Source: a virus
Taxonomy: Duplodnaviria; Heunggongvirae; Uroviricota; Caudoviricetes
Virus record (IMG/VR): IMGVR_UViG_3300028999_000002
Direction: 5' to 3' (one strand)
Length of the DNA stretch: 51,967 nt
Made by a program: the position numbers and the translations under genes. Under the pieces are notes generated by a model. The model saw only the letters and a program-made list of their open reading frames with translations, did no database searches and was not told the origin of the DNA. Below are positions 17,954 to 33,290 of this stretch, in pieces (positions within the stretch are counted from its first letter, which is position 1; each line of letters opens with the position of its first letter).

Positions 17954-18722
17954 GTGGTGTTGTCTCCTCTTCCGGCCTACGACTCTCCGCTATCTGCTGC
18001 TGATACGCCTGCTCTATCCACACCGGACGTGAGAGTCCGGCTTTTTGCCGCTCAGCAGATTCCCTGACCTGCTGGCGGAAAATGTCCTGATAATCCTCGC
18101 CCATCAGCGCCAGCTCTTTCTCATACGTGCTCAGTCCGGCCTCAATGCGCATCACTGATTCCTGGACTTCCTTGAGCCCGTCAATGGCCATTCTTCCGGC
18201 ACCAATCCACTCTGCCCGTGACCAGGCTGATCGCGCCTGATAAAAATCAAAACGTGCCCGTGGCGGACGAATAATCCCCCGAAGAAGTGCCTCTTCCAGC
18301 CAGCAGGAAAACATCTGCGTGGCCAGCCGGGCCGCAATAAATTTTCGCCGCCCCATAAAATAGCGCCACGACTCATTGGCGGAGGCGCGGGCACTTGAGT
18401 AACTGACCTTCGAGTAATCACGGGACAACTGTTCGTAGGAAACGCCAAGACCGGCGGCGATATACCGCAGCAGCGCCTGTTCAAGCGCAGAAAATCCATT
18501 GTCTGAATCCTGCGCAGTCTGTAGTTTCAGATCATCACCAGGGAAAAGGTGCGGAATTTTGACACCGCCCAGTGTCACGTTATTCGTGTCATACCAGCTG
18601 GAAAACTTCTCCAGAATATTAATAAGCGGATTATCCTTCTGCTCCTGTGGCGCGCCGGCGATATATTCAAAGGCCTTTTCGGTATCAAGTTCACTTTCAA
18701 TCGTCGCTGCATACATCGCCTT
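17943..18722 (-). pseudogene. B: portal protein B, C-terminal half (gene split by insertion of the element at 18723-29608)
   Basis: Translation matches lambda gpB from ...KAMYAATIESELD to the C-terminus; no N-terminal half upstream, replaced by non-coding satellite sequence. Confidence 0.9.
18710..18722. repeat. left copy of the 13-bp direct repeat (att core, plus-strand CATACATCGCCTT) flanking the inserted element
   Basis: Same 13-mer with one mismatch at 29609-29621, exactly at the two breakpoints of portal homology. Confidence 0.75.
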
Positions 18723-18796
18723 TATGAAAAGACAGGAAAAAATAAAATTTAAAAACAGTACATTACGAATGCTCAGACCTATCGTTTAAAGGAGTC

Positions 18797-18817
18797 GCAA
18801 TACACACTGCAATACAC
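18797..18817. repeat. two tandem GCAATACAC(A) repeats near the left end of the element
   Basis: gcaatacacactgcaatacac; same motif three times at 29434-29485 next to the integrase gene. Confidence 0.7.
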
Positions 18818-19159
18818 GATTATTTATAAGATGAGCGGCATCCGTCATAAAGCTGGTGGATGCTTTTTCTATGCATATATGCACAGTTTTAGTGGGCGTT
18901 AATGTCGATATAGGGATCCCCATATCGAGATTGGATACCTGGCTTTTTTCCGGTTAACCTTTAATCAGGCTGGTGGGCTTTACCTGTTTTGTATGAGTGG
19001 TCATCATGACCATGTCATAACAAAAACCCCATATTCGTGGTTTTTCTGTGTCGGGCTATTCTGTCGTTGCTGTGCTGATTTGGCTGGTGGGCTGAATCAT
19101 CATTACGGCGATGCAGCTATGTAGACGTTCCTGCCTCCTCAAATTGAGGATTGTGGAAG

Positions 19160-19284
19160 AATCAATGGGTTAGTCTTACTTTCCCGACATCCCCCAATGG
19201 GGGTTTTCGAAACAATCAATAGCTTAGGCTTACTTCCCCGATTTCCTGCATTGCAGGTTTTCGAAATAATCAATGGGTTAGGCC
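19160..19284. repeat. tandem ~55-bp repeats, each with a short GC hairpin followed by TTTTCGAAA
   Basis: Two full units plus a partial third; hairpins CCCCCAATGGGGG and CCTGCATTGCAGG; a third hairpin CCCCCAGTGGGGG at about 19365. Confidence 0.7.
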
Positions 19285-19531
19285 ATCGTGCAATTTTGCA
19301 CTTTGCCAGCCAGCGCAATGTCGCGTTATCAGTCCTCAGATGTGAGGGATGTAGCCAGCTTTTCCCCCAGTGGGGGATATCCAGCACCGACGGCTTAACT
19401 GTGCGTGCCAGCACAAGGTAGCCTTGAACTACTTACTGCATCCCATCTTACAGGCCGTGCCTTCCTGCTTAACTTTTTGCAATGCAACAAGTCAGCCAGC
19501 GCAATTTTGCGTTATCGGGAATATCAGCAAG

Positions 19532-19813
19532 TTACCGCCGCAATCGTTCCGGCTTCTTCCACTGGTAAGTATTTTTCGCGCTCTCCCTCCGTTGTTGAGA
19601 ACGGCGACGATATGCCAGCAACTCAAGGACTCTTGTTCGTATGTTGCGCATATCCACGCCGTTAAGCTCAATACCGTCACGGCGCATCACCTCAGCCACT
19701 ACACGCACATAATTATCTGCGGTCACGCTGTCCGGCTGCGTGGCCTGTTCGTCATGCTGCTTGCTGATTCCACAAGCACGGCGGATTAATCGCAGTATTT
19801 CGGATTCAGTCAT
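19532..19813 (-). CDS. hypothetical protein (satellite)
   Basis: 93-aa ORF downstream of the satellite Nu1-like gene, same strand; no recognisable family. Confidence 0.4.
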   Translation of the reverse strand: MTESEILRLIRRACGISKQHDEQATQPDSVTADNYVRVVAEVMRRDGIELNGVDMRNIRTRVLELLAYRRRSQQRRESAKNTYQWKKPERLRR

Positions 19814-19824
19814 AGCGTACTACG

Positions 19825-20367
19825 TTACTTATCTTTATTCGGCTGCAACTTATCCGGTACGTTTCCGGCAGTTTCCATCAGATAATCGGACAGCATCAGC
19901 GGTATGTTTTCGTCAAGTTTTGCGCATGCGTTACAGGCTCTGATAACTTCTTTTTTCAGTCCATCCAGCATAGACGGCTTCATGTCGGGAAACTTCCTTG
20001 TCATGGCAAGCGGCAGGCTGTCCATGATTGAAGAAATCTGACTCGCCAATTTTGAAAGCACGTATATACAAAACGCTGTATCAATAACGTCGCCGCGTTC
20101 GCGCTCGTTTTTAAGCTCCTGCGCCTCTGCCTGTGCTGTCAGCAATCTGATCCTGACTCGTAGGAGTTCATCATCATCAATCTCGCCTTTGTCGTCTGTA
20201 ATCTGGTTAATTGCATTGCTAACCCGATTGTCTATTACGCTGGCAACATCATAAAACGCCTCGCGGCCTTTACGTTCAACGGGAGTCACTCCCCACTTGT
20301 CGAACGCTGTCGCACTTACACGGCAGCTTTGCGCCATGTTTTTTTTGTTCATCAGGTGCGATTTCAT
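19825..20367 (-). CDS. Nu1-like terminase small subunit (satellite-encoded)
   Basis: C-terminal two-thirds align with lambda Nu1 (…RLLTAQAEAQELKNERERGDVIDTAFCIYVLSKLASQISSIMDSLPLAMTRKFPD…); N-terminal DNA-binding region divergent; start set at the ATG with a GGGGA SD. Confidence 0.8.
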   Translation of the reverse strand: MKSHLMNKKNMAQSCRVSATAFDKWGVTPVERKGREAFYDVASVIDNRVSNAINQITDDKGEIDDDELLRVRIRLLTAQAEAQELKNERERGDVIDTAFCIYVLSKLASQISSIMDSLPLAMTRKFPDMKPSMLDGLKKEVIRACNACAKLDENIPLMLSDYLMETAGNVPDKLQPNKDK

Positions 20368-20439
20368 CAATATCCCCACTTAAGTAATGTTTCAGGTTGG
20401 TGTATTGGCTTTATCTTTTCCTTTTTATTCATAGAGATA

Positions 20440-20530
20440 GAGCGAACAACAAAACCACCACCAGCACCCGAAAAAGGCTCATAAATAGCGAAAACCCGCG
20501 AGGTCGCCGCCCCGTAGCCTACCGGATCGC
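20440..20530 (-). other. satellite cos site (lambda-type cosN GGGCGGCGACCT at 20501-20512, with adjacent cosQ-like and cosB-like sequence)
   Basis: Minus strand reads GGGCGGCGACCTCGCGGGTTTTCGCTATTTATGA, matching the remembered lambda left cohesive end; directly upstream of the Nu1-like gene. Confidence 0.85.
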
Positions 20531-20568
20531 CGGAAAGGACCCGCCAGCCAGAACGGGCCCTAATTTCA

Positions 20569-20952
20569 TCAACCAATCAACTTATAGCGACCATCCCGTG
20601 CATTGCGACGTACACGCTCAATCTTGAGGCATAGCGCCGCATCTGGCTTTTTTGGGACAGGTACGCGGCAATATTCAGAAGATCGAGGAATATTGTTTAT
20701 CCAGTCGATCACTTCACTTAAATACCAGGCCTTACGCCCTTCCGTAACCTGTACGCGTTCGGGGAACTCTCCGCGAGCCTCAAGGTTTAGCAATGTGCGA
20801 CGGCTAAGGGTAGTAAGTTCCATCACCTGATTCATATCAACAAGGCGTTCACTTAAACGCATTTTGTCAGCAATAGCCTTTAATTCCTCTACTGCTGGAT
20901 CCGGATACATCATTTCGGCAATTGGCTTAAGGTCATTGTAATGATTCTGCAT
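20569..20952 (-). CDS. AlpA/excisionase-like HTH DNA-binding protein (satellite)
   Basis: C-terminal part resembles the AlpA/Xis-type HTH (…LSRRTLLNLEARGEFPERVQVTEGRKAWYLSEVIDWI…); lies between the D-like gene and cos. Confidence 0.45.
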   Translation of the reverse strand: MQNHYNDLKPIAEMMYPDPAVEELKAIADKMRLSERLVDMNQVMELTTLSRRTLLNLEARGEFPERVQVTEGRKAWYLSEVIDWINNIPRSSEYCRVPVPKKPDAALCLKIERVRRNARDGRYKLIG

Positions 20953-20963
20953 TGTATCCCCCT

Positions 20964-21305
20964 TTACACACGAGCCAGCGGCTGAACAGAAATACCTGAG
21001 CCAACAAACGCGGCAACCTTTGCCGACAGTTCTTTTACAGACTCAGGCCAGTTCAGAGCATCAACATTTAAAACACCTGTCTTATAAACCTGTGCCTGTG
21101 TTTTTTTCGCTGTGTCGATTTGTACAGCGGAAACATAAACCGCTTTACCTACGCTCGAACCATCCCATACCACCAGTGCACCTGTTGCATCTTCCTGCAT
21201 CAGTGGCGTAAATGCAGGAATTACCCCTTTATTAGCTGAAAATATCCCCAGCGTAGTCACCAGTGCTTCAGTGCCAGCCATGAGTTCAGTGTAATGAGTA
21301 GCCAT
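20964..21305 (-). CDS. head decoration protein D-like (satellite)
   Basis: 113 aa; shares TPLM…ATG.LVVWDG…YK(S/T)G…WPESV with the prophage D at 16062-16409. Confidence 0.75.
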   Translation of the reverse strand: MATHYTELMAGTEALVTTLGIFSANKGVIPAFTPLMQEDATGALVVWDGSSVGKAVYVSAVQIDTAKKTQAQVYKTGVLNVDALNWPESVKELSAKVAAFVGSGISVQPLARV

Positions 21306-21314
21306 TGCTCCCCC

Positions 21315-22361
21315 TTAGCCAATGCGAACGGTAACAAAACGATTGATGCGGGCCGGTATTGGCTGTGGTGCTGAATGTGTCTGCACATATTCAATAGCCG
21401 GATCACCAGGCACAATATAGTTTTTCGGTGCAAGTTCGGCTTTAGTCAGCCCCATTCGGATTAGCTCCGGATCCTGAATACCGCCATAGGCGACAATCCC
21501 CTGAAGAGCCGTATTGCCAAGCACCATCAAATCAGGATCAAGGAAATGTTTTTCTGTTCCGTCCTCGTCGGTATAACGCCCGCTGTAAACAACAATCGCA
21601 ACATCGCCCATATACCCTTTAAAACTCACCGAATCACCAAGGTCTTTAAGGGCCGTTTCCAGTTCGGAATTAGAACCACGACGGGTATCCAAAGCCTCTT
21701 TTATCGCTCTGAATGAACGGTATTTCTTCCATACATTACCACCCATAATGATGATATTAGTGACGCCCTCACTAAATTCTGCGTAGCTCTCAATATCATC
21801 ATTTGGATCAAAAGTTTCTTTATCCTTACCTGACCACTCAGTACCGCCAGACTGAGTGATGATATTTTGTGGTTTTATATTCCAGTCCAGCTCATAACGT
21901 TCAATACCATCGCCCTCAATGATATTTTTCCCCGTTGTGATTGCCTGAACAGCAAGCCATTCAATACGTGCACGAATAGCTTTAGCCTGATTTACAATCG
22001 CCTGTTTAACTTTAATATTACGCGCCCCAAAAGCATTGTATTGCTCAGGTGACACACCAGCAGGGCGCACAGCTAACTTATTTGGATCAATGCTGCTTTT
22101 CGGCTTCATATAACCTGGACGAATTGTTTTTGATTCGTATCCCTCATCTCGTGAAACTTTACTGCCCACCATAGGAGAGCAAAACGCCGCGATCGGGATA
22201 TTTGGATCGTCGATCGTATCAAGAATAATGTCTCTCGATTCAAACATTACCGAGCGAGTGAAAAACAAACTGGTAAACAACGCATTTAATTTTTTTTGCA
22301 CATCTTCAGCATTAGCCACCTGCACAAGCTGTGTAGGCGAATATAAATCAACCATACTCAT
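21315..22361 (-). CDS. major capsid protein E-like (satellite)
   Basis: Shares ITQSGGTEWS, LDTRRGSNSELETA, GDVAIVVYSG blocks with lambda gpE; start set at MSMVDLY by analogy with lambda MSMYTT (the next Met two codons on is equally possible). Confidence 0.85.
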   Translation of the reverse strand: MSMVDLYSPTQLVQVANAEDVQKKLNALFTSLFFTRSVMFESRDIILDTIDDPNIPIAAFCSPMVGSKVSRDEGYESKTIRPGYMKPKSSIDPNKLAVRPAGVSPEQYNAFGARNIKVKQAIVNQAKAIRARIEWLAVQAITTGKNIIEGDGIERYELDWNIKPQNIITQSGGTEWSGKDKETFDPNDDIESYAEFSEGVTNIIIMGGNVWKKYRSFRAIKEALDTRRGSNSELETALKDLGDSVSFKGYMGDVAIVVYSGRYTDEDGTEKHFLDPDLMVLGNTALQGIVAYGGIQDPELIRMGLTKAELAPKNYIVPGDPAIEYVQTHSAPQPIPARINRFVTVRIG

Positions 22362-22572
22362 CCTCTTTACATTCATTACAAATAATTGTGAATATATTCT
22401 ATTACCGATGTCTGCTATGCGAATACATGCAACCAAGTGCAATGTTGTATAAAATATGCCGTAACAACTTCAGTGCTGATAATTCGTGTTAATGTATTTA
22501 CTTCCTTTGGTCGGGATTTATGTAGCATGCCGGAAAATCTATTTTTTTCCGGCATCTTTTTGTTTGCAGAAT

Positions 22573-22995
22573 TTAAAACGGTATATTATCGCCGTACGGA
22601 TCATCATTCCCCGACTGTTGTTTTGCCCTGTTCAGTGCGTCAGTGGCCTGCCCCTGCTGGCCTTTTTTGCCGCCCGGTCGCGCCGTTCGCGCACTGATTA
22701 CGCTGTCTGCGATAACCTGCCAGCCCCGCCGAGTTTCGCCGTTCTGGCCTGTCCACTGGCTTACCTGCATGTTACCCGCCACGCTCACCAGTTCGCCTTT
22801 GTGGTGTTTTGCCAGTGCGTCGGCCTGTCTGCCAAACGCCAGGACGGATAACCACATCGTCGCCGTTCCGTCATCTGCCTGGCTGCACGGCAGGGGAACC
22901 GCCATACTCGCCATCGCCATTTGTGTCCCTTTGCTGGTGGTCTTTAACTGCGGGTCAGCCACCAGCCGCCCGTAAGCCGCTATCTGTGCTGTCAT
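22573..22995 (-). CDS. SSB-like single-stranded DNA-binding protein (satellite)
   Basis: 140 aa with an OB-fold-like N-terminus and the SSB-type acidic tail ending …DDPYGDNIPF. Confidence 0.55.
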   Translation of the reverse strand: MTAQIAAYGRLVADPQLKTTSKGTQMAMASMAVPLPCSQADDGTATMWLSVLAFGRQADALAKHHKGELVSVAGNMQVSQWTGQNGETRRGWQVIADSVISARTARPGGKKGQQGQATDALNRAKQQSGNDDPYGDNIPF

Positions 22996-23306
22996 GCTGT
23001 CTGCTCTCCGGTTTTAACATTGATGGTTGTCACCTGTTCCGCTTCGGCAATCTCCCGTTCTGTCAGCGTGGCAAAGTTTGCCGCTGCTGTGGTCATGAAT
23101 GCGCTTATCAGGTCGGGATGTTCCTTCGCGTATCCTGCCCGTGTGTGGTGGTCTATCGCTTTGATTGCCACCTTTAAGGAAAGCTCTGTCATGTCTAACG
23201 CTTTATATTTTGCCTGTGTTCTGTCTCTGCGAATTTTGGTCATTTGTCGCCCCTGATTCATGTTTTCGGCTGGCATGTTTGTTAAGTGATTTTTATGTAT
23301 GCGCAT
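22992..23306 (-). CDS. hypothetical protein (satellite)
   Basis: 104-aa ORF overlapping the SSB-like start by 4 nt; no recognisable family. Confidence 0.4.
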   Translation of the reverse strand: MRIHKNHLTNMPAENMNQGRQMTKIRRDRTQAKYKALDMTELSLKVAIKAIDHHTRAGYAKEHPDLISAFMTTAAANFATLTEREIAEAEQVTTINVKTGEQTA

Positions 23307-23329
23307 TTATTTTCACCCCCCCCTCGTTT

Positions 23330-23585
23330 AAAAAGTTTTTAGTTGTGCCTCCCCCCCTCTACCCATCTACCCGAATGCTCATCATGTCAGTAATAGCGCG
23401 GCTTTCAGCGGGTAGATAGCTTTTTGACTCCTCTACCTGCCGTCTACCCTGCTACCTGAAACTGATAAAATCAGGTAGAAGAGGTAGAGAGCTTTTATTA
23501 GCCTTCTACCTAGCCCTATACCCACTTATCATGTTGAATAATATGCGTTTATTTTGTTCAGGTAGATGGGGTAGATGGCTTTTAC
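23330..23585. repeat. iteron array (GGTAGA / TCTACC hexamers in both orientations, C-runs): putative satellite replication origin
   Basis: About 11 copies of the hexamer in 250 bp immediately 3' of the primase gene. Confidence 0.65.
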
Positions 23586-23591
23586 AAAAAA

Positions 23592-25346
23592 TTATAAAAA
23601 CGCGTCGCAATCGTCTGTTGTAATTGCGTTGGTCTGCGTTACTCCCTTAACTTTTCGCGTAATATATTCATGCCCGTAAACTTTCGCCGCTGGCTTCATG
23701 GCCTTGCTGAACTCAGCCACGTTTAGCGGTTTGCTCCTGCCCGCGTATGCCATAAACGCCAGATAGACGCGGTAAAGGCTGTTCCTGGTCGTGTACTTCA
23801 CTGAATCACCACCGCCACCCATCATCAGGCCGCGCGCTTCCTCCAGAAAATTCAGGAACTGGCAAAACTCAATAACCGGATCCGTCTGTTGCTTTATTGC
23901 CAGTGCTTCATCACCGTCACGCTGTTCCAGTAGTAAAGCCCGTGCCTTCTCAGGGTCGGTAAAGTTCGCCAGCAATCGGCGGATAATAACGGGGATTTCA
24001 GCCGCAATCTTTTCCGGTAGCTCCCTGTCTTTTTCGGCCTCACTGACGATATTGTCGAAACGGAAAATCACGCGACGACGTGCCACACCTCCGGCCCGTT
24101 CGGTGAATATCATCGGGTTGTTGTTGGTCGCCAGCACCACCGCCCTGATTACCGCCGTGAAACGCTTTTCATATTTCGGGTTAATTTCCACGGGGTCGCC
24201 GCCTGTGATTTTCTTGATGCCCGTTCCTTCGCCTGTATATTTCGGCTGGTCAGCCAGGACGATAAGACGACTCCCGACAACCTGCGCACGTCCACCAGCA
24301 TCATCAAGCGATGTCATTTCAGCGCTTACCGTGTTCTGTTTCCCTGCCAGAAGGCTGGCTATGTGTGTGAATGTACTTTTACCGCTCCCGCCGTCTCCGG
24401 TGGCCTCAATAAACATCTGCCAGTCGTACCGGTTCGCCATAATCATGTACAGCGCGGCACATATACGCATCATCTTGCGCGGGTCTTTTCCGGCTGCGTG
24501 CTCAAGCCATTTATGAAAGTTTGGCGCGTTATCGCGGATGTTCTCCCCTGGTGCTGGTGGCGTGTACTCAATGCCGTTGTGCGTGGTGATCCAGTTCTCC
24601 GGCGTGTGCGGGGAAAATTCCCCCGTTTTCAGGTCAAGCGCACCATTGGCGAACGGCAGCAAATCGCCAGACGGCTCGCCCATTGGTTCGGCAATAACTT
24701 TTAACGCTTCCACGGCGTTATTGATTACGCGCTTGCTGAAAGTGGCCCTGTGCTCTGAATAGATCGCCACCATTTCGCGGCTAAGTTCCATTGTGCTGAC
24801 CGGACACCATACCCCGCCGCGCCATACGTGAACGATTTCACTTTCAGGATGTACGCAAACGCCATCAAAGCGATCGGCAAGCAACTGCGCGCGCTCACTG
24901 TCCGCCATCTGCGAAAGTTGCGCCTTTTGCTTTACCGGAAGCTCAATGACCAGACCATCAGAAAGATTCTGGCGTTCACGGGCCAGATATTCGCGCCAGT
25001 TCTGCACCTCCTGGCCGTGCATACCCTCAGGATAAAAATTTGCATCCTGTACGCCTGCTGCCGCCAGCTTCTGACCAATCGCCTTTATCATTACAGGCGC
25101 AAGATATCCGGCCCTGTATATGCGTGCTGATTTTCGGCCTTCCGGCACAATTTGCAGATTATCCAGTTCGGATAGCTGCTGCTCCCCAAGCCACACAGGA
25201 GGCTCATTATCTCCGGCCATACGCGCATCATGTTCCTGCCATTGTTTCGCGTGTGCCCAGGCATCACTACCCGCAAAAATAATGACTTCTGTTCCTTTGT
25301 GTTTTATGCCGCGTGACTGCTGTTTTACGTTCGGTGCCAGTTTCAT
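23592..25346 (-). CDS. primase / replication initiator with P-loop NTPase (D5-like helicase) domain (satellite pri-rep)
   Basis: 584 aa with Walker A …ATGDGGSGKST… and the overall architecture of phage/satellite primase-helicases. Confidence 0.8.
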   Translation of the reverse strand: MKLAPNVKQQSRGIKHKGTEVIIFAGSDAWAHAKQWQEHDARMAGDNEPPVWLGEQQLSELDNLQIVPEGRKSARIYRAGYLAPVMIKAIGQKLAAAGVQDANFYPEGMHGQEVQNWREYLARERQNLSDGLVIELPVKQKAQLSQMADSERAQLLADRFDGVCVHPESEIVHVWRGGVWCPVSTMELSREMVAIYSEHRATFSKRVINNAVEALKVIAEPMGEPSGDLLPFANGALDLKTGEFSPHTPENWITTHNGIEYTPPAPGENIRDNAPNFHKWLEHAAGKDPRKMMRICAALYMIMANRYDWQMFIEATGDGGSGKSTFTHIASLLAGKQNTVSAEMTSLDDAGGRAQVVGSRLIVLADQPKYTGEGTGIKKITGGDPVEINPKYEKRFTAVIRAVVLATNNNPMIFTERAGGVARRRVIFRFDNIVSEAEKDRELPEKIAAEIPVIIRRLLANFTDPEKARALLLEQRDGDEALAIKQQTDPVIEFCQFLNFLEEARGLMMGGGGDSVKYTTRNSLYRVYLAFMAYAGRSKPLNVAEFSKAMKPAAKVYGHEYITRKVKGVTQTNAITTDDCDAFL

Positions 25347-25642
25347 TTTTTACCTCTGAATCCGTTAATCATGGTTTTCATTTTCTGGATATTTCCCCAC
25401 GCTTTTTCCCTGCTGATGGGCTTACTGCGGGGTGCGGCATATACCAGGGAAAAATCACGCCGGAACTGATAAACAGGCATCACGCAGTCATAGCTATACC
25501 CCTCACGGCGGTAAGTGATGCGCCGTTCTGCCACGCCTTTAATCGTTACCGTGCCGCCGTATTTATCGCGGTAAATATCGCCGTTCATAAATTCAGGTCG
25601 AGCGGGGCCGCTGGCAATAAAGCCAGAATTTTTCATTTCCAT
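25343..25642 (-). CDS. hypothetical protein (satellite early operon)
   Basis: 99-aa ORF overlapping the primase start by 4 nt. Confidence 0.45.
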   Translation of the reverse strand: MEMKNSGFIASGPARPEFMNGDIYRDKYGGTVTIKGVAERRITYRREGYSYDCVMPVYQFRRDFSLVYAAPRSKPISREKAWGNIQKMKTMINGFRGKK

Positions 25643-25659
25643 ATTATTTATTCCTCGAC

Positions 25660-25881
25660 TTAACTCGACTTATTTGATAGCAGGGCACTATTTATTGCGT
25701 CATTGAGTTTTTCTGCTGATTCATCAATAAGTGACAACAGGCCATAAGCAATATTTGCATCTTCATTGTCATTTATGCAATCAAGCCACATATTTAATAT
25801 TGCTTTTGCTGAATTATTTAAAGTTAATGAACTTTCTGCACATGCTAACAATTTAAAAAAGACTTCCCGTTCTGTATTCAT
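25660..25881 (-). CDS. hypothetical small protein (satellite early operon)
   Basis: 73-aa ORF in a tightly packed co-directional series. Confidence 0.35.
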   Translation of the reverse strand: MNTEREVFFKLLACAESSLTLNNSAKAILNMWLDCINDNEDANIAYGLLSLIDESAEKLNDAINSALLSNKSS

Positions 25882-26073
25882 TTAATCCCCCACCAGCTTA
25901 CTTTCTTCCTCAATCAAAAAACTAGCGACACTTCCCGAAAGACGCGCCAGTAGGCTCGCCAGTGCGGATATATCAGCATCTGTAATTTTGTTCGGGTATA
26001 CCTCAAGAAGGCGGCAAATAATTTCTGTCTGGTGCGCACGTTCAGCGGCTTCGTGTAATGTAATTTCCTGCAT
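25882..26073 (-). CDS. hypothetical small protein (satellite early operon)
   Basis: 63-aa ORF abutting its neighbours. Confidence 0.35.
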   Translation of the reverse strand: MQEITLHEAAERAHQTEIICRLLEVYPNKITDADISALASLLARLSGSVASFLIEEESKLVGD

Positions 26074-26258
26074 TAATGCACCTCTTTTAATTCATACACT
26101 GCTGAAATAATGACTTGTGATAAGCCATATTCTGATGATTCGCTTCTCACCGCAGCAATAGCCGTCTGAACATTAACAGCCTTCACATTCTGAGCGATAC
26201 CAATTGTGTGGCCTATTGGGTTAACAGCTCGGGCAAATACACGGAAGGTTTTAAGCAT
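26073..26258 (-). CDS. hypothetical small protein (satellite early operon, first gene)
   Basis: 61-aa ORF; stop overlaps the next start. Confidence 0.35.
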   Translation of the reverse strand: MLKTFRVFARAVNPIGHTIGIAQNVKAVNVQTAIAAVRSESSEYGLSQVIISAVYELKEVH

Positions 26259-26540
26259 GACTCACTCCCTGGCGGATTTTTGCAGCGAATACAGCAACAC
26301 AACCGGACGGGCAACGGCTACGCGCTTCGCGTTCCGTCCAGGCGGTTACGTGGATGATTTGAGATTCTCCGGCACTCAGTGCCAGAAAACGCCACACAAA
26401 GGCCGTTTGTGTGTGTACAAGGTGTGGTATATGATTTACAGCAACCATAACGGCTCCTAGTTTACGTTGTTGGTTAGACGCCCCGTATGTGTTCCCAGCA
26501 CTGCGGGGCGTTGCTCTTTGTATTTCAACAATCCTTTCGG

Positions 26541-26618
26541 TGTGTTTCATGTTATGAGCGCATGAAACACACGTCAAGGCTTTTTGTATTTCTTTTTTTG
26601 TGTATACTGAAACACACC
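26541..26618. promoter_or_regulatory. divergent promoter/operator region of the satellite with an 11-bp perfect inverted repeat (TGTGTTTCATG n9 CATGAAACACA) and a third half-site
   Basis: IR at 26541-26571; additional TGAAACACACC at about 26608; sits between divergent minus- and plus-strand gene sets. Confidence 0.55.
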
Positions 26619-26638
26619 GATGATTAGGAGTTTCAGAA

Positions 26639-26944
26639 ATGGCAACGGCTAACAAAAACGCAAAATCACAACTGACAACTGTCAGAGTCCCACTAGATGT
26701 TATGCAAGGGATGGAATCCGTTAAGCTGGACGGTGAAAGCAATGCCGGATTTATCGTAACCGCCATGCGCGGAGAAATAGCCCGCCGCCAAGCAGAAGGC
26801 AGCGGAGAAAATCCCCTTGTGTCGTCACTGGATGCCCTGGCTAAGGTCGAACAAATCGGCATCAAAGCAGCCGAGGAGATCGGGCAACTCGTCACCGTCG
26901 CGCGTGAAGAACTCCAGCGACGCAAGGTCAAAGAGCATGAATAG
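26639..26944 (+). CDS. hypothetical small protein, candidate regulator (satellite)
   Basis: 101-aa ORF with AGGAG SD, transcribed divergently from the early operon just downstream of the operator-like IR. Confidence 0.45.
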   Translation: MATANKNAKSQLTTVRVPLDVMQGMESVKLDGESNAGFIVTAMRGEIARRQAEGSGENPLVSSLDALAKVEQIGIKAAEEIGQLVTVAREELQRRKVKEHE

Positions 26945-27001
26945 CCAATATCAGCGCCATAGTTTGAGGAACGCAGGCGCATTGCTTTACAGGACAGCAC
27001 C

Positions 27002-27181
27002 ATGAGCGACACAGAATCAACCAAAACACCATCACCAACTCGTAAGAGACGACGCAAAAATATAGCGCATGAACATGAATCAGAAAGATTCGCACCTTGT
27101 TCGTTTGCTCTTGAGAAATTCCTTAAAGAGCACAGGAAAAAGCTCTCGTTGCAAACCTTGGAACGAACCAAATCTGACTGA
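27002..27181 (+). CDS. hypothetical small basic protein (satellite)
   Basis: 59-aa ORF found by manual translation (below the ORF-track cut-off); Lys/Arg-rich N-terminus. Confidence 0.25.
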   Translation: MSDTESTKTPSPTRKRRRKNIAHEHESERFAPCSFALEKFLKEHRKKLSLQTLERTKSD

Positions 27182-27277
27182 TCACATTGCCCACCAGCCG
27201 CAAATGTGGCATTGTTGGTGATGCTTTTGTTTTCCCTTGTTCCCACTGGCGACCCTTTTGCGGTCGCCTTTGTTTTG

Positions 27278-27856
27278 TCACTGAATGCGGTTACCAAAGT
27301 AAAACTCAGGCTGATATTCACGTATCAGCGTTTTTTCTTCTTCCTCCAGCTCACGCTTTTTGCGCTTACATGCCTGTAGCTCCCTCCCCTTCTCGCTGGC
27401 ACTTATTTGATATTGCTCTTTACGGCGGGAAAAATCCTGTAATGCACCCCACGGGATACCATAAGTCCCCGTTTTTCTGATACCTGGTATCACATTTCTG
27501 AATACCCAGTTACTGAAACGATGAGCAAATGTGCCAGGCGTCGTTGCTTTGCGGCTGCGGGCTATTAGTTTGTAGAAACCTGACTCAGAGATAATTCTCA
27601 TATTCTGATTTCCTCCTGGGGTGTAAGTTAAATTTACTCCCTTTTCATCATCATCAAGCATCTGCAACGCCGTACGCGAATTGGTTAGTTCCAGCGCAGC
27701 ACAAACATCTTTTGCAACAAACCACGGATCGCCGTTCAGATACACCACACGAACGTTCACACTATCAAAGCGCAGAACGACGAGATCACGAATATCGCAG
27801 AATTTTTTCACTGGACGAGCGTACCCCTTGCCCGTCACGGCAATATTTTTATTCAT
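27278..27856 (-). CDS. Bro-N domain protein (antirepressor-like)
   Basis: N-terminal …VVYLNGDPWFVAKDVCAALEL… is a typical Bro-N motif. Confidence 0.7.
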   Translation of the reverse strand: MNKNIAVTGKGYARPVKKFCDIRDLVVLRFDSVNVRVVYLNGDPWFVAKDVCAALELTNSRTALQMLDDDEKGVNLTYTPGGNQNMRIISESGFYKLIARSRKATTPGTFAHRFSNWVFRNVIPGIRKTGTYGIPWGALQDFSRRKEQYQISASEKGRELQACKRKKRELEEEEKTLIREYQPEFYFGNRIQ

Positions 27857-27912
27857 CGCGTTTTTACCTTATAGACAAAAAACCCCTCGTGATGAGGGGC
27901 ATTATTTACTGG

Positions 27913-28170
27913 TTATTGCTGTTTTGTTTTTCCAGGTTTCCACCCAGGATGCCACTCACCACGGATCCATGCCTGAACCTCTGAAAGTCGATACCCTGCA
28001 GCACGTTCACCGATCTTGATACGTCGCGGGAATTTACCTGCCTGCTCCATTTTCCAGCGTGTTGAGTTTGCCAGCGTGGTAAGTGCTATGCACTCTTTTT
28101 CACGAATGAACCGATCAATGTCCTTCATTGTGCGCAAATCGTTTTCATCAACAAGAGAATAAATTGCCAT
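27913..28170 (-). CDS. alpA: AlpA-family transcriptional regulator
   Basis: 85 aa, AlpA-type HTH (…RWKMEQAGKFPRRIKIGERAAGYRLSEVQAWI…), immediately downstream of int as in P4-like and PICI elements. Confidence 0.75.
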   Translation of the reverse strand: MAIYSLVDENDLRTMKDIDRFIREKECIALTTLANSTRWKMEQAGKFPRRIKIGERAAGYRLSEVQAWIRGEWHPGWKPGKTKQQ

Positions 28171-28171
28171 A

Positions 28172-29413
28172 TCACACCACCTCTTTATTAAGCTCGATAA
28201 CGTTGTTGTTAAATCCTGCTATCGTATTAAGGTAATTAACCCACATATTAAGCACCTCAAGTTTTTTCTTTATATGCCTGCTTTTATTGTAAACACCAGC
28301 AACCCCTTTCACTTTATGACCTAAAAGAAGTTCGACAATATAAGGATCCGCCCCCATATCATTAAGCGTAGTGGAAAATGTGCGCCTGAAATCATGTATG
28401 CACCACAAGCCATTAGTATCATGACCAAGACGCCTGCATATTCTGTTTGCAGCCCCTGTTATTGTCGCCCTTTGCAAAGCACAACCGACAACATAACCGC
28501 GATTTTTTGTTTCTGCGTAAAGATTAACGATCCATTGTTTTATTCCGTCAGGAACAGGCCTTACTATAGCCTCCTTGTTTTTGCTGTGCTCTTTTGGGAC
28601 TGTCCATACCCAGTTTTTTAAATCCCATTCGTCCCAGGTGGATAGCCTCGCCTCCTGCTGTCGGCAACCAAACACCAGGCAGATAACCATTATTCTTCGG
28701 TTATATATTGATGACAGAGTTAGCAAATTATTACCGTAAGCATAAGACCATACATCAGCGGTTTCATTGATATTAAGAACGCGATCCCTTATACCGGATG
28801 AGCGCCCGACATAACTTACGTTAATATCTCCAAAGGGATCGCACGCGATGTATTGCCTGACGCGACAAAAACGCAACGCCTGTTTGATATCAAGAAAAAT
28901 TGCACCAGACATAACAGGCGCATTTTTTTTGATCCTGTCAAAGACGGTAAGCCATGTGTGTAATTTGCACTGTTCTATAGCCATATCACCGATATAGGGG
29001 AAGATATGCTTTTCAAATCGTTTTATTAAATATTCATGCTCTTTTCTGGCTGTTGTGGCGTGATTGTCGTACCAGTAAAACAGCGCATCCCTTACGGTCA
29101 CTGGTTGCATAGTTTTTTCGGCAGCAAGTTTTATTTGCCTGCGGGGGTCCAGATTTTCAGCCAGCCATTCACGGCACTGATCACGCATGCGCCTGGCCGT
29201 TGCAAGAGACATGTCAGGATAGCGACCAAGTGTAAGCCATACCGGAGGGGATTCCCTGCCACCAAGACGATAGTAAAAAACAAAGCTGATCCCCCCAACC
29301 ATGCTTACACGCACAGACAACCCGCGCCCATCCGCTATTGTTTTTTGTTTGTCCTGCCGTTTTCCGACAAGACTCTTTAACAGTTTGTCACTGAGTTTGT
29401 TTTCAATAGCCAT
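28172..29413 (-). CDS. tyrosine integrase, P4-type (satellite)
   Basis: 413 aa; P4-family integrase N-terminal domain and C-terminal catalytic region; 5' end about 200 bp from the right junction. Confidence 0.9.
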   Translation of the reverse strand: MAIENKLSDKLLKSLVGKRQDKQKTIADGRGLSVRVSMVGGISFVFYYRLGGRESPPVWLTLGRYPDMSLATARRMRDQCREWLAENLDPRRQIKLAAEKTMQPVTVRDALFYWYDNHATTARKEHEYLIKRFEKHIFPYIGDMAIEQCKLHTWLTVFDRIKKNAPVMSGAIFLDIKQALRFCRVRQYIACDPFGDINVSYVGRSSGIRDRVLNINETADVWSYAYGNNLLTLSSIYNRRIMVICLVFGCRQQEARLSTWDEWDLKNWVWTVPKEHSKNKEAIVRPVPDGIKQWIVNLYAETKNRGYVVGCALQRATITGAANRICRRLGHDTNGLWCIHDFRRTFSTTLNDMGADPYIVELLLGHKVKGVAGVYNKSRHIKKKLEVLNMWVNYLNTIAGFNNNVIELNKEVV

Positions 29414-29433
29414 TAAAAGCCCTCAAGAGATTT

Positions 29434-29485
29434 GCAATACACACCCATCCCGATCGCCAATTTGCAATACACATTGCAATACACA
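29434..29485. repeat. three GCAATACACA repeats between the integrase start and the right att core
   Basis: gcaatacacac … gcaatacaca ttgcaatacaca; same motif as at 18797-18817. Confidence 0.7.
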
Positions 29486-29561
29486 AAACCGCGAAAAACT
29501 GGAAGGGTGATGAACGGTCATCAAAAGCATGGAAAACGACATTCCAGACGCAGCAAGGGTT

Positions 29562-30434
29562 TCAGTGGAGTTGGCGAACGATGCGGGCAACTACGGTGAG
29601 ATGATAGACATAAATCGCCTTCACTATGGCCGACTGAAGCTGTGTTGCCTGCAGGGAATCGAGCATCTTCAGCCGTTCCATGACGCTGTAAAACTGATTA
29701 GCCCCACGGGTCTGCCCGTCCTCCACCGGCTCGAAAATATGCAGCATGGCCGGACGCCCGGTGGGAAGTTCACGCGGGATCCGTTCCCATCGTCCACTAC
29801 CAGAGAACGGAAAATCATCCTCACAGATATGGTACGCGACGGCACGGCCATATCGATCGACCTCCACACCGGCCCGCAGAAAACGGTTCCCCATACCGTG
29901 TCCAGGCGTGTCCACCCGTTTCGGACTCACGGCTTTAAAACGCGTACGGAATAACTGCGTGGTTTCCGTATCCCAGACCGGCTGCACAAAGATTTCGCCG
30001 TTAAACGCATGAACGCCCACACCTTCACGGATAAATTCCGTGAACGTGCGTTTTCCTTCCACGTCGATCTCGCCAAACATCCCTTCGGCGTATTCCGACC
30101 AGGCCGCCTCCACCTCATCGACAAAGCTTTTTGCTGCGGTCTCCCGCATCCCCAGCCAGCGCCAGTTCGGACGGTAGCTGATCAGAAACATATGCCCGAC
30201 AATGTGATCCTTATGCAGAGCCACCGCATTAGCCGCTATTCCGTTATTGCGCACCAGATCATCTGCCCGGGCATTCCCCAGACGCAACGCGGGCAGCAGG
30301 GCCGCATCGGCACTCTGCGCCGGTGGCAACCACTCAGCCATTTGCCCGCCAAATCCTGCACCGCCCCCGTTGTAGCTGAGACTCTCACGAAGCGGAACGC
30401 CGTTCACATCAATCAGGACAGGCGTTCGTTTCAT
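29562..30434 (-). pseudogene. B: portal protein B, N-terminal half (ends in 15 element-derived codons after the junction)
   Basis: Translation matches lambda gpB up to …LQSAIVKA(I)Y, then diverges into element sequence and stops. Confidence 0.9.
29609..29621. repeat. right copy of the 13-bp direct repeat (att core, plus-strand CATAAATCGCCTT)
   Basis: Portal homology ends exactly here; one mismatch to the left copy. Confidence 0.75.
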
Positions 30435-33199: not shown

Positions 33200-33290
33200 A
33201 CACGATTTTCCCTGAAAAATTTTCATAAATAGTGAAAAACCGCGAGGTCGCCGCCCCGTAACCTGTTGGATCGACGGAAAGGACCCGAAA
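33200..33290 (-). other. prophage cos site (cosN GGGCGGCGACCT at 33245-33256)
   Basis: Minus strand reads GGGGCGGCGACCTCGCGGTTTTTCACTATTTATGAAAATTTT, upstream of Nu1 as in lambda. Confidence 0.85.

What the first reader, a model, noticed from the sequence alone, without database searches (positions are those of the whole stretch)
23330..23585. Dense GGTAGA/TCTACC iteron field 3' of the satellite primase: putative satellite replication origin
About 11 hexamer copies in both orientations with poly-C tracts lie immediately downstream of the primase-helicase gene, the usual position of rep-proximal origins in chromosomal islands and satellites.
Basis: partly seen in the sequence, partly recalled or inferred. 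Interest (0 to 1): 0.45.

Follow-up and report, generated by a model that had tools for sequence, protein, structure and literature searches.

The report
Replication origin of a phage satellite
The repeat cluster is real and is almost certainly the replication origin of a small phage-parasitising island (a PICI satellite) sitting inside a lambda-like prophage; it is a close variant of an origin already shown to work in E. coli CFT073, so it is correct but ordinary.

Summary
Observation confirmed. Ten exact and two one-mismatch GGTAGA/TCTACC hexamers lie in 23358-23575, against five in the other 51.7 kb (Poisson P about 1e-19). It is the strongest hexamer cluster in the window.

Interpretation supported. 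The field fills the 285-bp gap 3' of a 584-aa initiator gene (23592-25346, minus strand). That protein is 98% identical to Pri-Rep of EcCICFT073, whose pri-ori segment was shown to replicate (PMC6092414). The CFT073 origin has the same hexamers at the same positions.

Across 43 distinct related origins the hexamers are nearly invariant while the spacers drift. In more distant relatives the layout is kept but the repeat changes (TGTTCAC, GTGTTCAT, GTATACAT), together with the initiator's C-terminal domain. That domain is homologous to the phage P4 alpha origin-binding domain (1KA8).

The layout is two inverted units, each with the pattern of the P4 ori. The unit next to the gene holds the easiest-melting spacer.

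Rivals are excluded: the cos site is at 20501-20512, att-associated repeats differ, and there is no Rfam hit.

Caveat: "primase" is a label only. The N-terminus is a Toprim-like fold without the catalytic acidic residues.

Known kind; low interest.

The parts
23307..23591 (-). Whole intergenic origin region between the initiator gene and the next ORF (285 bp).
   Evidence: ORF map. Homologous to the EcCICFT073 pri-to-orf intergenic region L012:11996-12283.
23358..23575 (.). Iteron field: 10 exact and 2 degenerate copies of TCTACC(C/T)/GGTAGA. Read in the sense of the initiator gene the order is: >> spacer (<)< >> (<)<< > spacer <<.
23474..23575 (-). Unit A, next to the gene. It consists of an iteron pair (23561-23575), a 50-bp AT-rich spacer (23511-23560), an inverted single iteron (23505-23510, plus degenerate 23517-23522) and a direct pair (23474-23488). 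Spacing matches the P4 ori (10, 45, 20, 11, 10).
   Evidence: P4 ori annotation.
23516..23555 (.). Candidate DNA-unwinding element: the least stable 40-mer of the intergenic region (-44.9 kcal/mol). It is less stable than 99% of all 40-mers in the island. The spacer is 32% G+C.
23358..23456 (-). Unit B, distal from the gene and the inverted counterpart of unit A. It consists of an inverted triple (23432-23456), a direct single iteron (23411-23416), a 39-bp spacer of 51% G+C (23372-23410) and an inverted pair (23358-23371).
   Evidence: In CFT073/L006 the spacing is mirror-symmetric: 9, 46, 22, 11, 9 | 31 | 11, 22, 46, 9.
23388..23408 (-). Non-iteron motif CTGAAAGCCGCGCTATTACTG (gene sense) inside the unit-B spacer. 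Conservation is 0.98 across 43 origins, and it is recognisable in a TGTTCAC-class origin (L082). Function unknown.
23326..23340 (-). A-tract/T-tract AAAAACTTTTTAAAC (gene sense) on the outer flank of unit B. It is invariant in the GGTAGA class and present in Serratia, Morganella, L072 and L082. Both P4 crr repeats have a similar tract (AAAAAAAACTTTTTT).
23592..25346 (-). Initiator gene ('pri' or 'pri-rep', 584 aa): an N-terminal Toprim-like domain, then D5_N, an SF3 helicase (DUF5906) and a C-terminal winged-helix origin-binding domain. 98% identical to EcCICFT073 Pri-Rep. 40% identical to P4 alpha residues 324-756.
23619..23885 (-). Codons 488-576: the C-terminal domain, homologous to the P4 alpha origin-binding domain (PDB 1KA8, E = 8e-6). 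This is the presumed iteron reader.
   Evidence: Covariation with iterons.
22992..23306 (-). Small ORF of unknown function directly 3' of the origin (104 aa from the ATG at 23306; RefSeq relatives start it at 23243, giving 83 aa). Conserved partner of the module.
   Evidence: No Pfam or NCBIfam hit.
22573..22995 (-). Satellite-encoded single-strand DNA-binding protein, part of the replication module.
   Evidence: Pfam SSB, E = 5.5e-16. Same gene order in all relatives.
25343..25642 (-). DUF4222 gene that always precedes the initiator gene in the module.

Best explanation
The field is the vegetative replication origin of a ~10.9-kb PICI-type phage satellite (island 18723-29608). The satellite is inserted in the portal gene of a lambdoid helper prophage. 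Proposed mechanism: after induction, the satellite's alpha-like initiator (23592-25346) binds the TCTACC(C/T) iterons through its C-terminal winged-helix domain. The iterons form two inverted units, each with the layout of the phage P4 ori: a pair, a ~45-bp spacer, one inverted copy, then two or three direct copies. Adjacent copies are 8-11 bp apart, about one helical turn, so bound domains sit on one face of the DNA. Oligomerisation over both units melts the AT-rich spacer of the gene-proximal unit (about 23516-23555). The protein's own SF3 helicase then loads there, the satellite SSB coats the strands, and theta-type replication yields DNA that is later packaged from the separate cos site at 20501-20512. 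Shown here: the repeat cluster and its layout; conservation of iterons against drifting spacers; covariation of iterons with the C-terminal domain; homology of the initiator to a functionally tested one and to P4 alpha. Inferred: binding, the melting site, helicase loading, and who makes the primers. Priming is probably by host DnaG, because no active primase domain is evident.
For: Cluster statistics are. The initiator is 571/584 identical to EcCICFT073 Pri-Rep. The published pri-ori, pri-delta-ori and delta-pri-ori plasmids show the CFT073 segment is a functional replicon, and the paper places GN-PICI origins immediately 3' of the initiator, with two iteron sets flanking an AT-rich region. 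A published delta-pri primer contains the first CFT073 iteron pair, which confirms the gene's identity. CFT073 and five other E. coli/Shigella elements carry TCTACC/GGTAGA at equivalent positions, although the region is only ~76-85% identical. In 43 distinct origins, iteron columns are 0.946 conserved against 0.72 for the rest (Mann-Whitney p = 5e-14). All 80 IMG/VR relatives have an iteron cluster within 330 bp of the stop codon. Those with 70% or more identity use GGTAGA; those at 53-55% use TGTTCAC(C), GTGTTCAT or GTATACAT in the same layout. L084 and L088 initiators differ by 1 nonsynonymous change in codons 1-498 but 14 in codons 499-587. Their iterons differ too (GTGTTCAT vs GTATACAT), and nucleotide identity dips only across the binding domain plus origin. 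Residues 488-576 match the P4 origin-binding domain 1KA8, and residues 141-573 are 40% identical to P4 alpha. The P4 ori has the same iteron spacing. The unit-A spacer is the least stable 40-mer locally and lies in the least stable 1% of island 40-mers. Among elements sharing the iterons, Pri is 88-98% identical but AlpA only 33-60% and Int 24-40%.
Against: Nothing here was tested experimentally. The tested CFT073 origin is only ~76% identical in sequence to this one, although all iterons are shared. In the published assay, deleting the origin reduced colony numbers rather than abolishing them. No DnaA box, promoter or terminator was found that would help place the start site. The initiator lacks a recognisable active primase, so priming is unexplained. 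A 21-nt invariant non-iteron motif (23388-23408) and the A/T tract (23326-23340) have no assigned role, so part of the region may do something else as well.
Confidence: 0.9

Rival explanations
1. The repeats are operator or activator sites of a transcription regulator (for example AlpA) that controls the downstream orf-ssb-capsid operon. On this view they are not an origin.
For: The field lies upstream of a co-oriented gene block. No terminator separates it from pri. Conserved non-iteron motifs (23326-23340, 23388-23408) sit next to the start of the next ORF.
Against: No sigma-70-like promoter was found on either strand. The same iterons occur in elements whose AlpA proteins are only 33-60% identical and whose late modules are entirely different, lambda-E-type capsid versus HK97 capsid/portal/protease sets. 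Iteron sequence changes with the initiator's C-terminal domain. The homologous CFT073 region behaves as an origin. A dual role is not excluded.
Confidence: 0.04
2. Only half of the field is the true origin. The other half is a cis-acting enhancer or copy-control element like the P4 crr. It would bind the initiator for looping or handcuffing, but replication would not start there.
For: The two units are separable: L072-L075 and L082-L083 have them in the opposite order, and P4 keeps ori and crr 4.5 kb apart. Only unit A has an AT-rich spacer (32% vs 51% G+C). Unit B ends in an inverted pair plus an A/T tract, as each P4 crr repeat does.
Against: By iteron pattern, unit B is simply the mirror image of unit A, which fits a dyad origin that loads two helicases equally well. 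No functional data separate the halves. This is a refinement of the best explanation rather than a competitor.
Confidence: 0.3
3. The field is a packaging signal: cos or pac, or binding sites for the satellite's small terminase-like protein.
For: The island encodes a Nu1-like small terminase homologue (19825-20379), and lambda cosB contains repeated Nu1 sites (from general knowledge).
Against: An exact lambda cosN 12-mer with lambda-like flanks lies at 20501-20512, directly upstream of the terS-like gene. A second copy lies at 33245-33256 upstream of the helper's nohD. The iteron field is 2.8 kb away. CFT073 has the same iterons but no terS.
Confidence: 0.01
4. The repeats are integrase or excisionase arm-type sites of the satellite attachment region, or they are a chance, non-functional repeat cluster.
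For: Short repeats in both orientations are typical of att arms.
Against: The island ends are at 18710-18722 and 29609-29621 (13-bp core in portal nt 814-826). A different repeat, ATTTGCAATACACA, marks those ends. Integrases of elements sharing the iterons are only 24-40% identical and use different sites. Chance is excluded. Rfam finds no RNA family.
Confidence: 0.01

Closest known systems
Replication origin of Gram-negative PICIs, specifically EcCICFT073 pri-ori (Fillol-Salom et al. 2018, ISME J, PMC6092414)
   Same: Same position directly 3' of pri. The initiator is 98% identical. Same TCTACC/GGTAGA iterons at equivalent positions. Same flanking genes: DUF4222, pri, ori, small orf, ssb. Iteron sets flank an AT-rich spacer, as the paper describes.
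   Different: The origin DNA is only ~76% identical. Unit A here has a 10-bp longer spacer, with a second (degenerate) inverted copy and two rather than three direct copies. The 3' end of pri, the origin and the start of the next ORF form a divergent mosaic block relative to CFT073. The host element here is embedded in a prophage portal gene, not at a chromosomal site.
Phage P4 ori and crr with the alpha protein (NC_001609 annotation; 1KA8; domain summary in PMC2777425)
   Same: The initiator shares the SF3 helicase and the C-terminal winged-helix origin-binding domain (40% identity over 434 aa). Short 6-8-bp iterons occur in both orientations. Each unit here has the P4 ori spacing (P4: 10, 45, 20, 11, 10; here: 9, 44-56, 22, 9 and, for the inverted unit, 8, 45, 21, 11, 8). 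The field sits directly 3' of the initiator gene, as the P4 crr does. An A/T tract follows the terminal pair, as in the crr repeats.
   Different: The iteron is TCTACC(C/T), not TGTTCACC. The two units are contiguous and inverted, whereas in P4 ori and crr are 4.5 kb apart and crr is a direct 120-bp duplication. There is no terminator between gene and repeats. The initiator lacks P4 alpha's N-terminal 323-aa DnaG-type primase region.
Helper-embedded PICIs (HE-PICI; PMC10111431)
   Same: The satellite is integrated in, and co-oriented with, a late gene of its lambdoid helper. It has int, alpA, pri, ori, ssb and lambda-type capsid and decoration genes. Portal-gene sites (B:Phage_portal_2) are among those reported.
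   Different: That paper mentions the origin only as present downstream of pri and does not analyse it. This element also has a Nu1-like terS gene, which 11capE and EcCICFT073 lack.
SaPI origins of Gram-positive PICIs (cited in PMC6092414; the helicase part of this initiator matches PDB entry 7OLA, deposited as 'DNA primase')
   Same: The origin lies immediately 3' of rep, and iteron sets flank an AT-rich region. The helicase part of the initiator here matches PDB 7OLA at E = 4e-15. From memory, not checked here, 7OLA is the SaPI5 primase-helicase.
   Different: Different iteron sequences, and a different N-terminal region and DNA-binding domain. SaPI origins were not compared at sequence level here.

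Membership tests
Gram-negative PICI replication origin | Lies immediately 3' of the pri/rep initiator gene. | tested here: met
   The first iteron starts 16 nt after the stop codon at 23592-23594.
Gram-negative PICI replication origin | Two sets of iterons flank an AT-rich region. | tested here: met
   A pair at 23561-23575 and copies at 23474-23510 flank a 50-bp spacer of 32% G+C. This spacer holds the least stable 40-mer of the region.
Gram-negative PICI replication origin | The cognate initiator belongs to the PICI Pri-Rep family. | tested here: met
   98% identity to EcCICFT073 Pri-Rep. Gene identity is confirmed by the published primer.
Gram-negative PICI replication origin | The pri-ori segment supports autonomous replication, dependent on both pri and ori. 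| not testable with these tools
   Shown only for the CFT073 homologue.
Gram-negative PICI / helper-embedded PICI (the host element) | int, alpA and pri are co-oriented; size is 10-20 kb; the element carries the helper's cos; for HE-PICI, it is inserted in and co-oriented with a prophage late gene. | tested here: met
   Int at 28172-29413, AlpA at 27913-28170 and pri are all on the minus strand. The island is 10.9 kb, between 13-bp cores in the portal gene. Exact cosN at 20501-20512.
Phage P4 ori/crr system | Alpha-type initiator: SF3 helicase plus a C-terminal winged-helix origin-binding domain. | tested here: met
   40% identity to alpha residues 324-756. 1KA8 hit at E = 8e-6. TIGR01613 at 109 bits against a cutoff of 108.7.
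Phage P4 ori/crr system | Type 1 iteron TGTTCACC. | tested here: not met
   The iteron here is TCTACC(C/T). TGTTCAC(C) occurs only in relatives at 40-55% identity (Serratia L003, vB_KppS-Ant L010, L078-L083).
Phage P4 ori/crr system | ori and crr are separate cis elements (4.5 kb apart), and crr is a direct 120-bp duplication. | tested here: not met
   Here the two units are contiguous and inverted. P4 layout.
Phage P4 ori/crr system | N-terminal DnaG-type primase domain in the initiator. | tested here: inconclusive
   [not shown]
Classical iteron-plasmid oriV (RepA/Rep_3 type) | Direct 17-22-bp iterons, DnaA boxes and a Rep_3-type initiator. | tested here: not met
   The iterons are 6-8 bp and in both orientations. 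There is no exact DnaA box; one 1-mismatch hit is at chance frequency. The initiator is an SF3 helicase.
Lambda-type cos site | cosN 12-mer GGGCGGCGACCT with flanking terminase sites. | tested here: not met
   cosN is at 20501-20512 and 33245-33256, not in the field.

The most novel reading that the evidence does not exclude
The PICI origin may be a compact, modular version of the P4 replication system. It would consist of two P4-ori-like iteron units that can be inverted and adjacent (here and in CFT073), permuted (L072-75, L082-83) or kilobases apart (P4 ori and crr). The initiator's C-terminal binding domain and the iterons would be exchanged or would co-evolve as one cassette. That would generate discrete specificity classes (TCTACC, TGTTCACC, GTGTTCAT, GTATACAT). 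L088 would be a caught-in-the-act intermediate, since its origin mixes old and new iterons. If so, this gives a natural system for studying how initiator-origin specificity, and hence compatibility between co-resident satellites, evolves. It would also suggest that the dyad arrangement loads two SF3 helicases head-to-head, as in papillomavirus and SV40 origins.
Probability: 0.45. Interest if true: 0.4.

Novelty: new member of a known kind. Interest (0 to 1): 0.2.

Why it matters
It pins down the cis-acting replication site of a helper-embedded satellite found in about 8% of complete E. coli genomes (434 of 5426 hold a related origin). It also shows that the first-stage reading was sound. The practical value is modest. 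The map gives exact coordinates for the iterons, the likely melting site and two conserved motifs of unknown role. It flags that the 'primase' annotation rests on the helicase domain alone. It also provides comparative evidence (binding-domain/iteron cassettes, permuted units, P4-like unit spacing) that could guide specificity-swap experiments. It does not reveal a new kind of system.

Tried and rejected
- Rfam scan of the whole island at E <= 1 found no RNA family.
- Promoter and terminator consensus scan of 22900-23800 found none on either strand. This neither supports nor excludes a promoter role.
- DnaA-box search found no exact box in the origin, and near-matches are at chance frequency.
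- cosN search placed packaging sites elsewhere, which rejects the cos hypothesis.
- A direct-repeat search of the island found different repeats at the att ends, which rejects the arm-site hypothesis.
- The genome-contig scan with the single protein returned only 3 loci. The viral-contig scan with an alignment gave the 80 loci that were actually used.
- BLASTP of the N-terminal 160 aa against the P4 alpha primase region found nothing, and Pfam at E <= 5 found nothing.
- The protein database search with the N-terminus returned mostly partial E. coli proteins. These were enough for a confident AF2 model but not for deep phylogeny.
- Primary P4 replication papers are not in the searchable library. 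Statements about alpha binding to type 1 iterons therefore rest on the GenBank annotation, on PMC2777425 and on my own recall.
- I looked by eye for a sigma-54-like or IHF-like site in the spacers and found no convincing match. These were not pursued.

Full report
**1. The observation**

The stretch 23358-23575 holds 10 of the window's 15 exact GGTAGA/TCTACC hexamers, five in each orientation. There are also two one-mismatch copies, at 23451-23456 and 23517-23522. From the density elsewhere in the window, 0.02-0.06 copies are expected in 218 bp, giving Poisson P between 5e-24 and 3e-19. No other hexamer reaches more than 6 copies in any 220-bp stretch, and 30 Markov-1 simulations gave maxima of 4-6.

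All ten exact copies extend to TCTACC followed by C or T.

- C8 at 23316-23323 is the complement of a GAGGGGGGGG ribosome-binding-like run just upstream of the ATG (23304-23306) of the next minus-strand ORF.
- C7 at 23351-23357 abuts the last iteron and is not conserved in relatives.

**2. Context**

All neighbouring genes are on the minus strand. They are:
- a DUF4222 gene (25343-25642);
- a 584-aa 'DNA primase family' gene (23592-25346), with D5_N, DUF5906 and Pox_D5 domains;
- the 285-bp gap that holds the repeats;
- a small ORF (22992-23306);
- an SSB gene (22573-22995);
- lambda-type major capsid and decoration genes;
- an AlpA-like gene and a Nu1-like small terminase gene.

A near-identical E. 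coli chromosome (99.8% over the region) shows that this ~11-kb block, from integrase to terS, interrupts the portal gene of a lambdoid prophage. Alignment with an intact portal gene puts a 13-bp duplicated core at 18710-18722 and 29609-29621, so the island is 18723-29608.

This is the 'helper-embedded PICI' configuration of PMC10111431, which lists portal-gene sites. Related origin sequences occur in 434 of 5426 complete E. coli genomes, always on chromosomes.

**3. Relation to a tested origin**

PMC6092414 states that Gram-negative PICI origins lie immediately 3' of the initiator gene, with two iteron sets flanking an AT-rich region. It also shows that the EcCICFT073 pri-ori segment maintains a temperature-sensitive plasmid, dependent on pri and (partly) on ori.

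I located EcCICFT073 in NC_004431. Its 584-aa Pri-Rep is 571/584 identical to the window protein. A published delta-pri primer contains its first iteron pair, which confirms the gene's identity.

Its 288-bp pri-to-orf gap carries TCTACC/GGTAGA at positions equivalent to the window's, although the DNA there is only about 76% identical to the window (locus L008 has the CFT073-type origin). The 3' end of pri, the origin and the start of the next ORF form a divergent mosaic block between the two elements.

**4. Comparative evidence that the hexamers are the functional units**

Six further E. coli/Shigella elements share the module. They include classical PICIs at cspD and capsid-forming PICIs with HK97-type head genes.

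Among 43 distinct origins of this class (58-100% identical to the window, median 69%):
- iteron columns are 0.946 conserved, with 47 of 60 invariant;
- other columns between the first and last iteron are 0.72 conserved (Mann-Whitney p = 5e-14).

Among five elements with the same iterons, Pri is 88-98% identical, AlpA 33-60% and integrase 24-40%. The repeats therefore follow the initiator, not the regulator or the recombinase.

**5. Covariation with the initiator's DNA-binding domain**

Residues 488-576 match the P4 alpha origin-binding winged-helix domain (1KA8, E = 8e-6). Residues 190-432 match the helicase region of PDB entry 7OLA, deposited as 'DNA primase'. Residues 141-573 are 40% identical to P4 alpha 324-756.

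All 80 IMG/VR relatives have a repeat cluster within 330 bp of the stop codon:
- 65 loci with 70% or more identical initiators use GGTAGA;
- 12 loci at 53-55% use TGTTCA-type repeats;
- 3 loci use GTATAC-type repeats.

Serratia (53%), Morganella (52%), vB_KppS-Ant (41%) and P4 itself use TGTTCAC(C) or TGTTCAT in the same layout.

The sharpest case is L084 versus L088:
- Codons 1-498 differ by 52 synonymous changes and 1 nonsynonymous change.
- Codons 499-587 differ by about 29 synonymous and 14 nonsynonymous changes.
- Nucleotide identity falls to 65-85% only across the binding domain plus the origin, and recovers to 96-99% beyond it.
- The iterons change from GTGTTCAT to GTATACAT, with some old and intermediate copies left in L088.

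The binding domain and the iterons therefore behave as one cassette.

**6. Anatomy**

Read in the sense of the gene, CFT073-type origins have this spacing: > 9 > 46 < 22 > 11 > 9 > | 31 | < 11 < 22 > 46 < 9 <. These are two mirror-image units. The P4 ori reads > 10 > 45 < 20 > 11 > 10 >, the same unit.

In the window:
- Unit A is 23474-23575. Its spacer is 10 bp longer, with a second (degenerate) inverted copy and two direct copies.
- Unit B is 23358-23456.

Only unit A's long spacer is AT-rich (32% G+C against 51%). It contains the least stable 40-mer of the region (23516-23555), which is less stable than 99% of all 40-mers in the island.

Unit B's spacer carries a 21-nt motif (23388-23408) that is 0.98 conserved and recognisable even in a TGTTCAC-class origin (L082). 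I have no explanation for it.

An A-tract/T-tract (23326-23340) flanks unit B. A similar tract flanks it in distant relatives and in both P4 crr repeats.

In L072-75 and L082-83 the two units occur in the opposite order. The units are therefore separable modules, which recalls the P4 split into ori and crr.

**7. Rivals**

- Packaging: an exact lambda cosN with lambda-like flanks is at 20501-20512, upstream of the terS-like gene. The helper's cosN is at 33245-33256.
- Attachment: a different repeat (ATTTGCAATACACA) marks the island ends.
- RNA: no Rfam hit.
- Transcription control: no promoter or terminator consensus, and iterons do not track AlpA. A secondary regulatory role is not excluded.
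- Classical plasmid oriV: no DnaA box.

**8. The 'primase'**

The name comes from TIGR01613, which covers the helicase part. The N-terminal 150-160 aa have no Pfam hit and no similarity to the P4 alpha primase region.

By my reading of the alignment, the positions that would hold the Toprim glutamate and DxD acidic residues are not acidic (IIFAGSD and IYRAG). I did not verify this by structural superposition.

The same N-terminal module also occurs fused to PF13481-type helicases.

I therefore regard the protein as an alpha-like helicase/origin-binding initiator whose primase activity is unproven. Priming by host DnaG is my inference.

**9. Verdict**

The thing is a sequence variant of a published, functionally tested kind of origin, in a published kind of satellite.

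The additional points are modest comparative refinements:
- each unit has P4-ori-like spacing;
- the units can be permuted;
- the binding domain and iterons behave as a cassette;
- the Toprim-like N-terminal domain looks degenerate;
- two conserved motifs have no assigned role.

Interest 0.2.

Noticed in passing
window 19136-19281: Three copies, 54 bp apart, of a 38-nt unit. Each begins with a 14-15-nt palindrome whose inner bases differ between copies but stay palindromic (TCCTCAAATTGAGGA / TCCCCCAATGGGGGT / TCCTGCATTGCAGGT), followed by TTTTCGAAA-AATCAAT-G-TTAG. They lie in ~800 bp of unannotated DNA at the island's terS-side end. This could be a protein-binding array or structured RNA.
   Followed up: no
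window 29430-29485 and 18793-18806: ATTTGCAATACACA occurs three times just upstream of the integrase start, with one degenerate copy at the opposite island end. These are probably integrase or excisionase arm-type sites.
   Followed up: no
window 18710-18722 and 29609-29621: A 13-bp duplicated core marks insertion of the 10.9-kb satellite at nt 814-826 of the helper prophage portal gene. The two portal halves are 99.7-99.9% identical to the intact CFT073 prophage portal. The helper therefore cannot make portal protein until the satellite excises.
   Followed up: partly
window 20501-20512 and 33245-33256: Two exact lambda cosN 12-mers. One is in the satellite upstream of its Nu1-like terS gene, with lambda-like flanking sequence. 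The other is in the helper upstream of nohD.
   Followed up: partly
[not shown]
   Followed up: partly
window 23388-23408: The 21-nt motif CTGAAAGCCGCGCTATTACTG (gene sense) in the unit-B spacer is 0.98 conserved across 43 origins and recognisable in a different iteron class (L082: CTAAAAGCTGCGTCATTACTGG). No function is assigned.
   Followed up: partly
L084 vs L088 (IMG/VR loci), initiator codons 499-587 plus ~300 bp downstream: These two initiators are almost identical at protein level over codons 1-498 but differ in the C-terminal binding domain. Their iterons differ (GTGTTCAT vs GTATACAT), and L088 keeps a mixture of old, new and intermediate iterons. This may be an intermediate in a specificity switch, or a recombination cassette.
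   Followed up: partly
L072-L075 and L082-L083 (IMG/VR loci), 330 bp after the initiator stop codon: The two iteron units are in the opposite order: the unit with the conserved spacer and A/T tract comes first, and the AT-rich unit second.
   Followed up: no
window 22992-23306: The start of the small ORF after the origin is annotated inconsistently in RefSeq relatives. Window-type elements use an internal ATG (83 aa), while CFT073-type elements use the ATG after the G-rich Shine-Dalgarno-like run. Here the longer 104-aa reading has that run.
   Followed up: no
window 20569-20952 and 27913-28170: The island carries two AlpA-family genes, one next to the integrase and a longer one directly upstream of cos and terS.
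   Followed up: no
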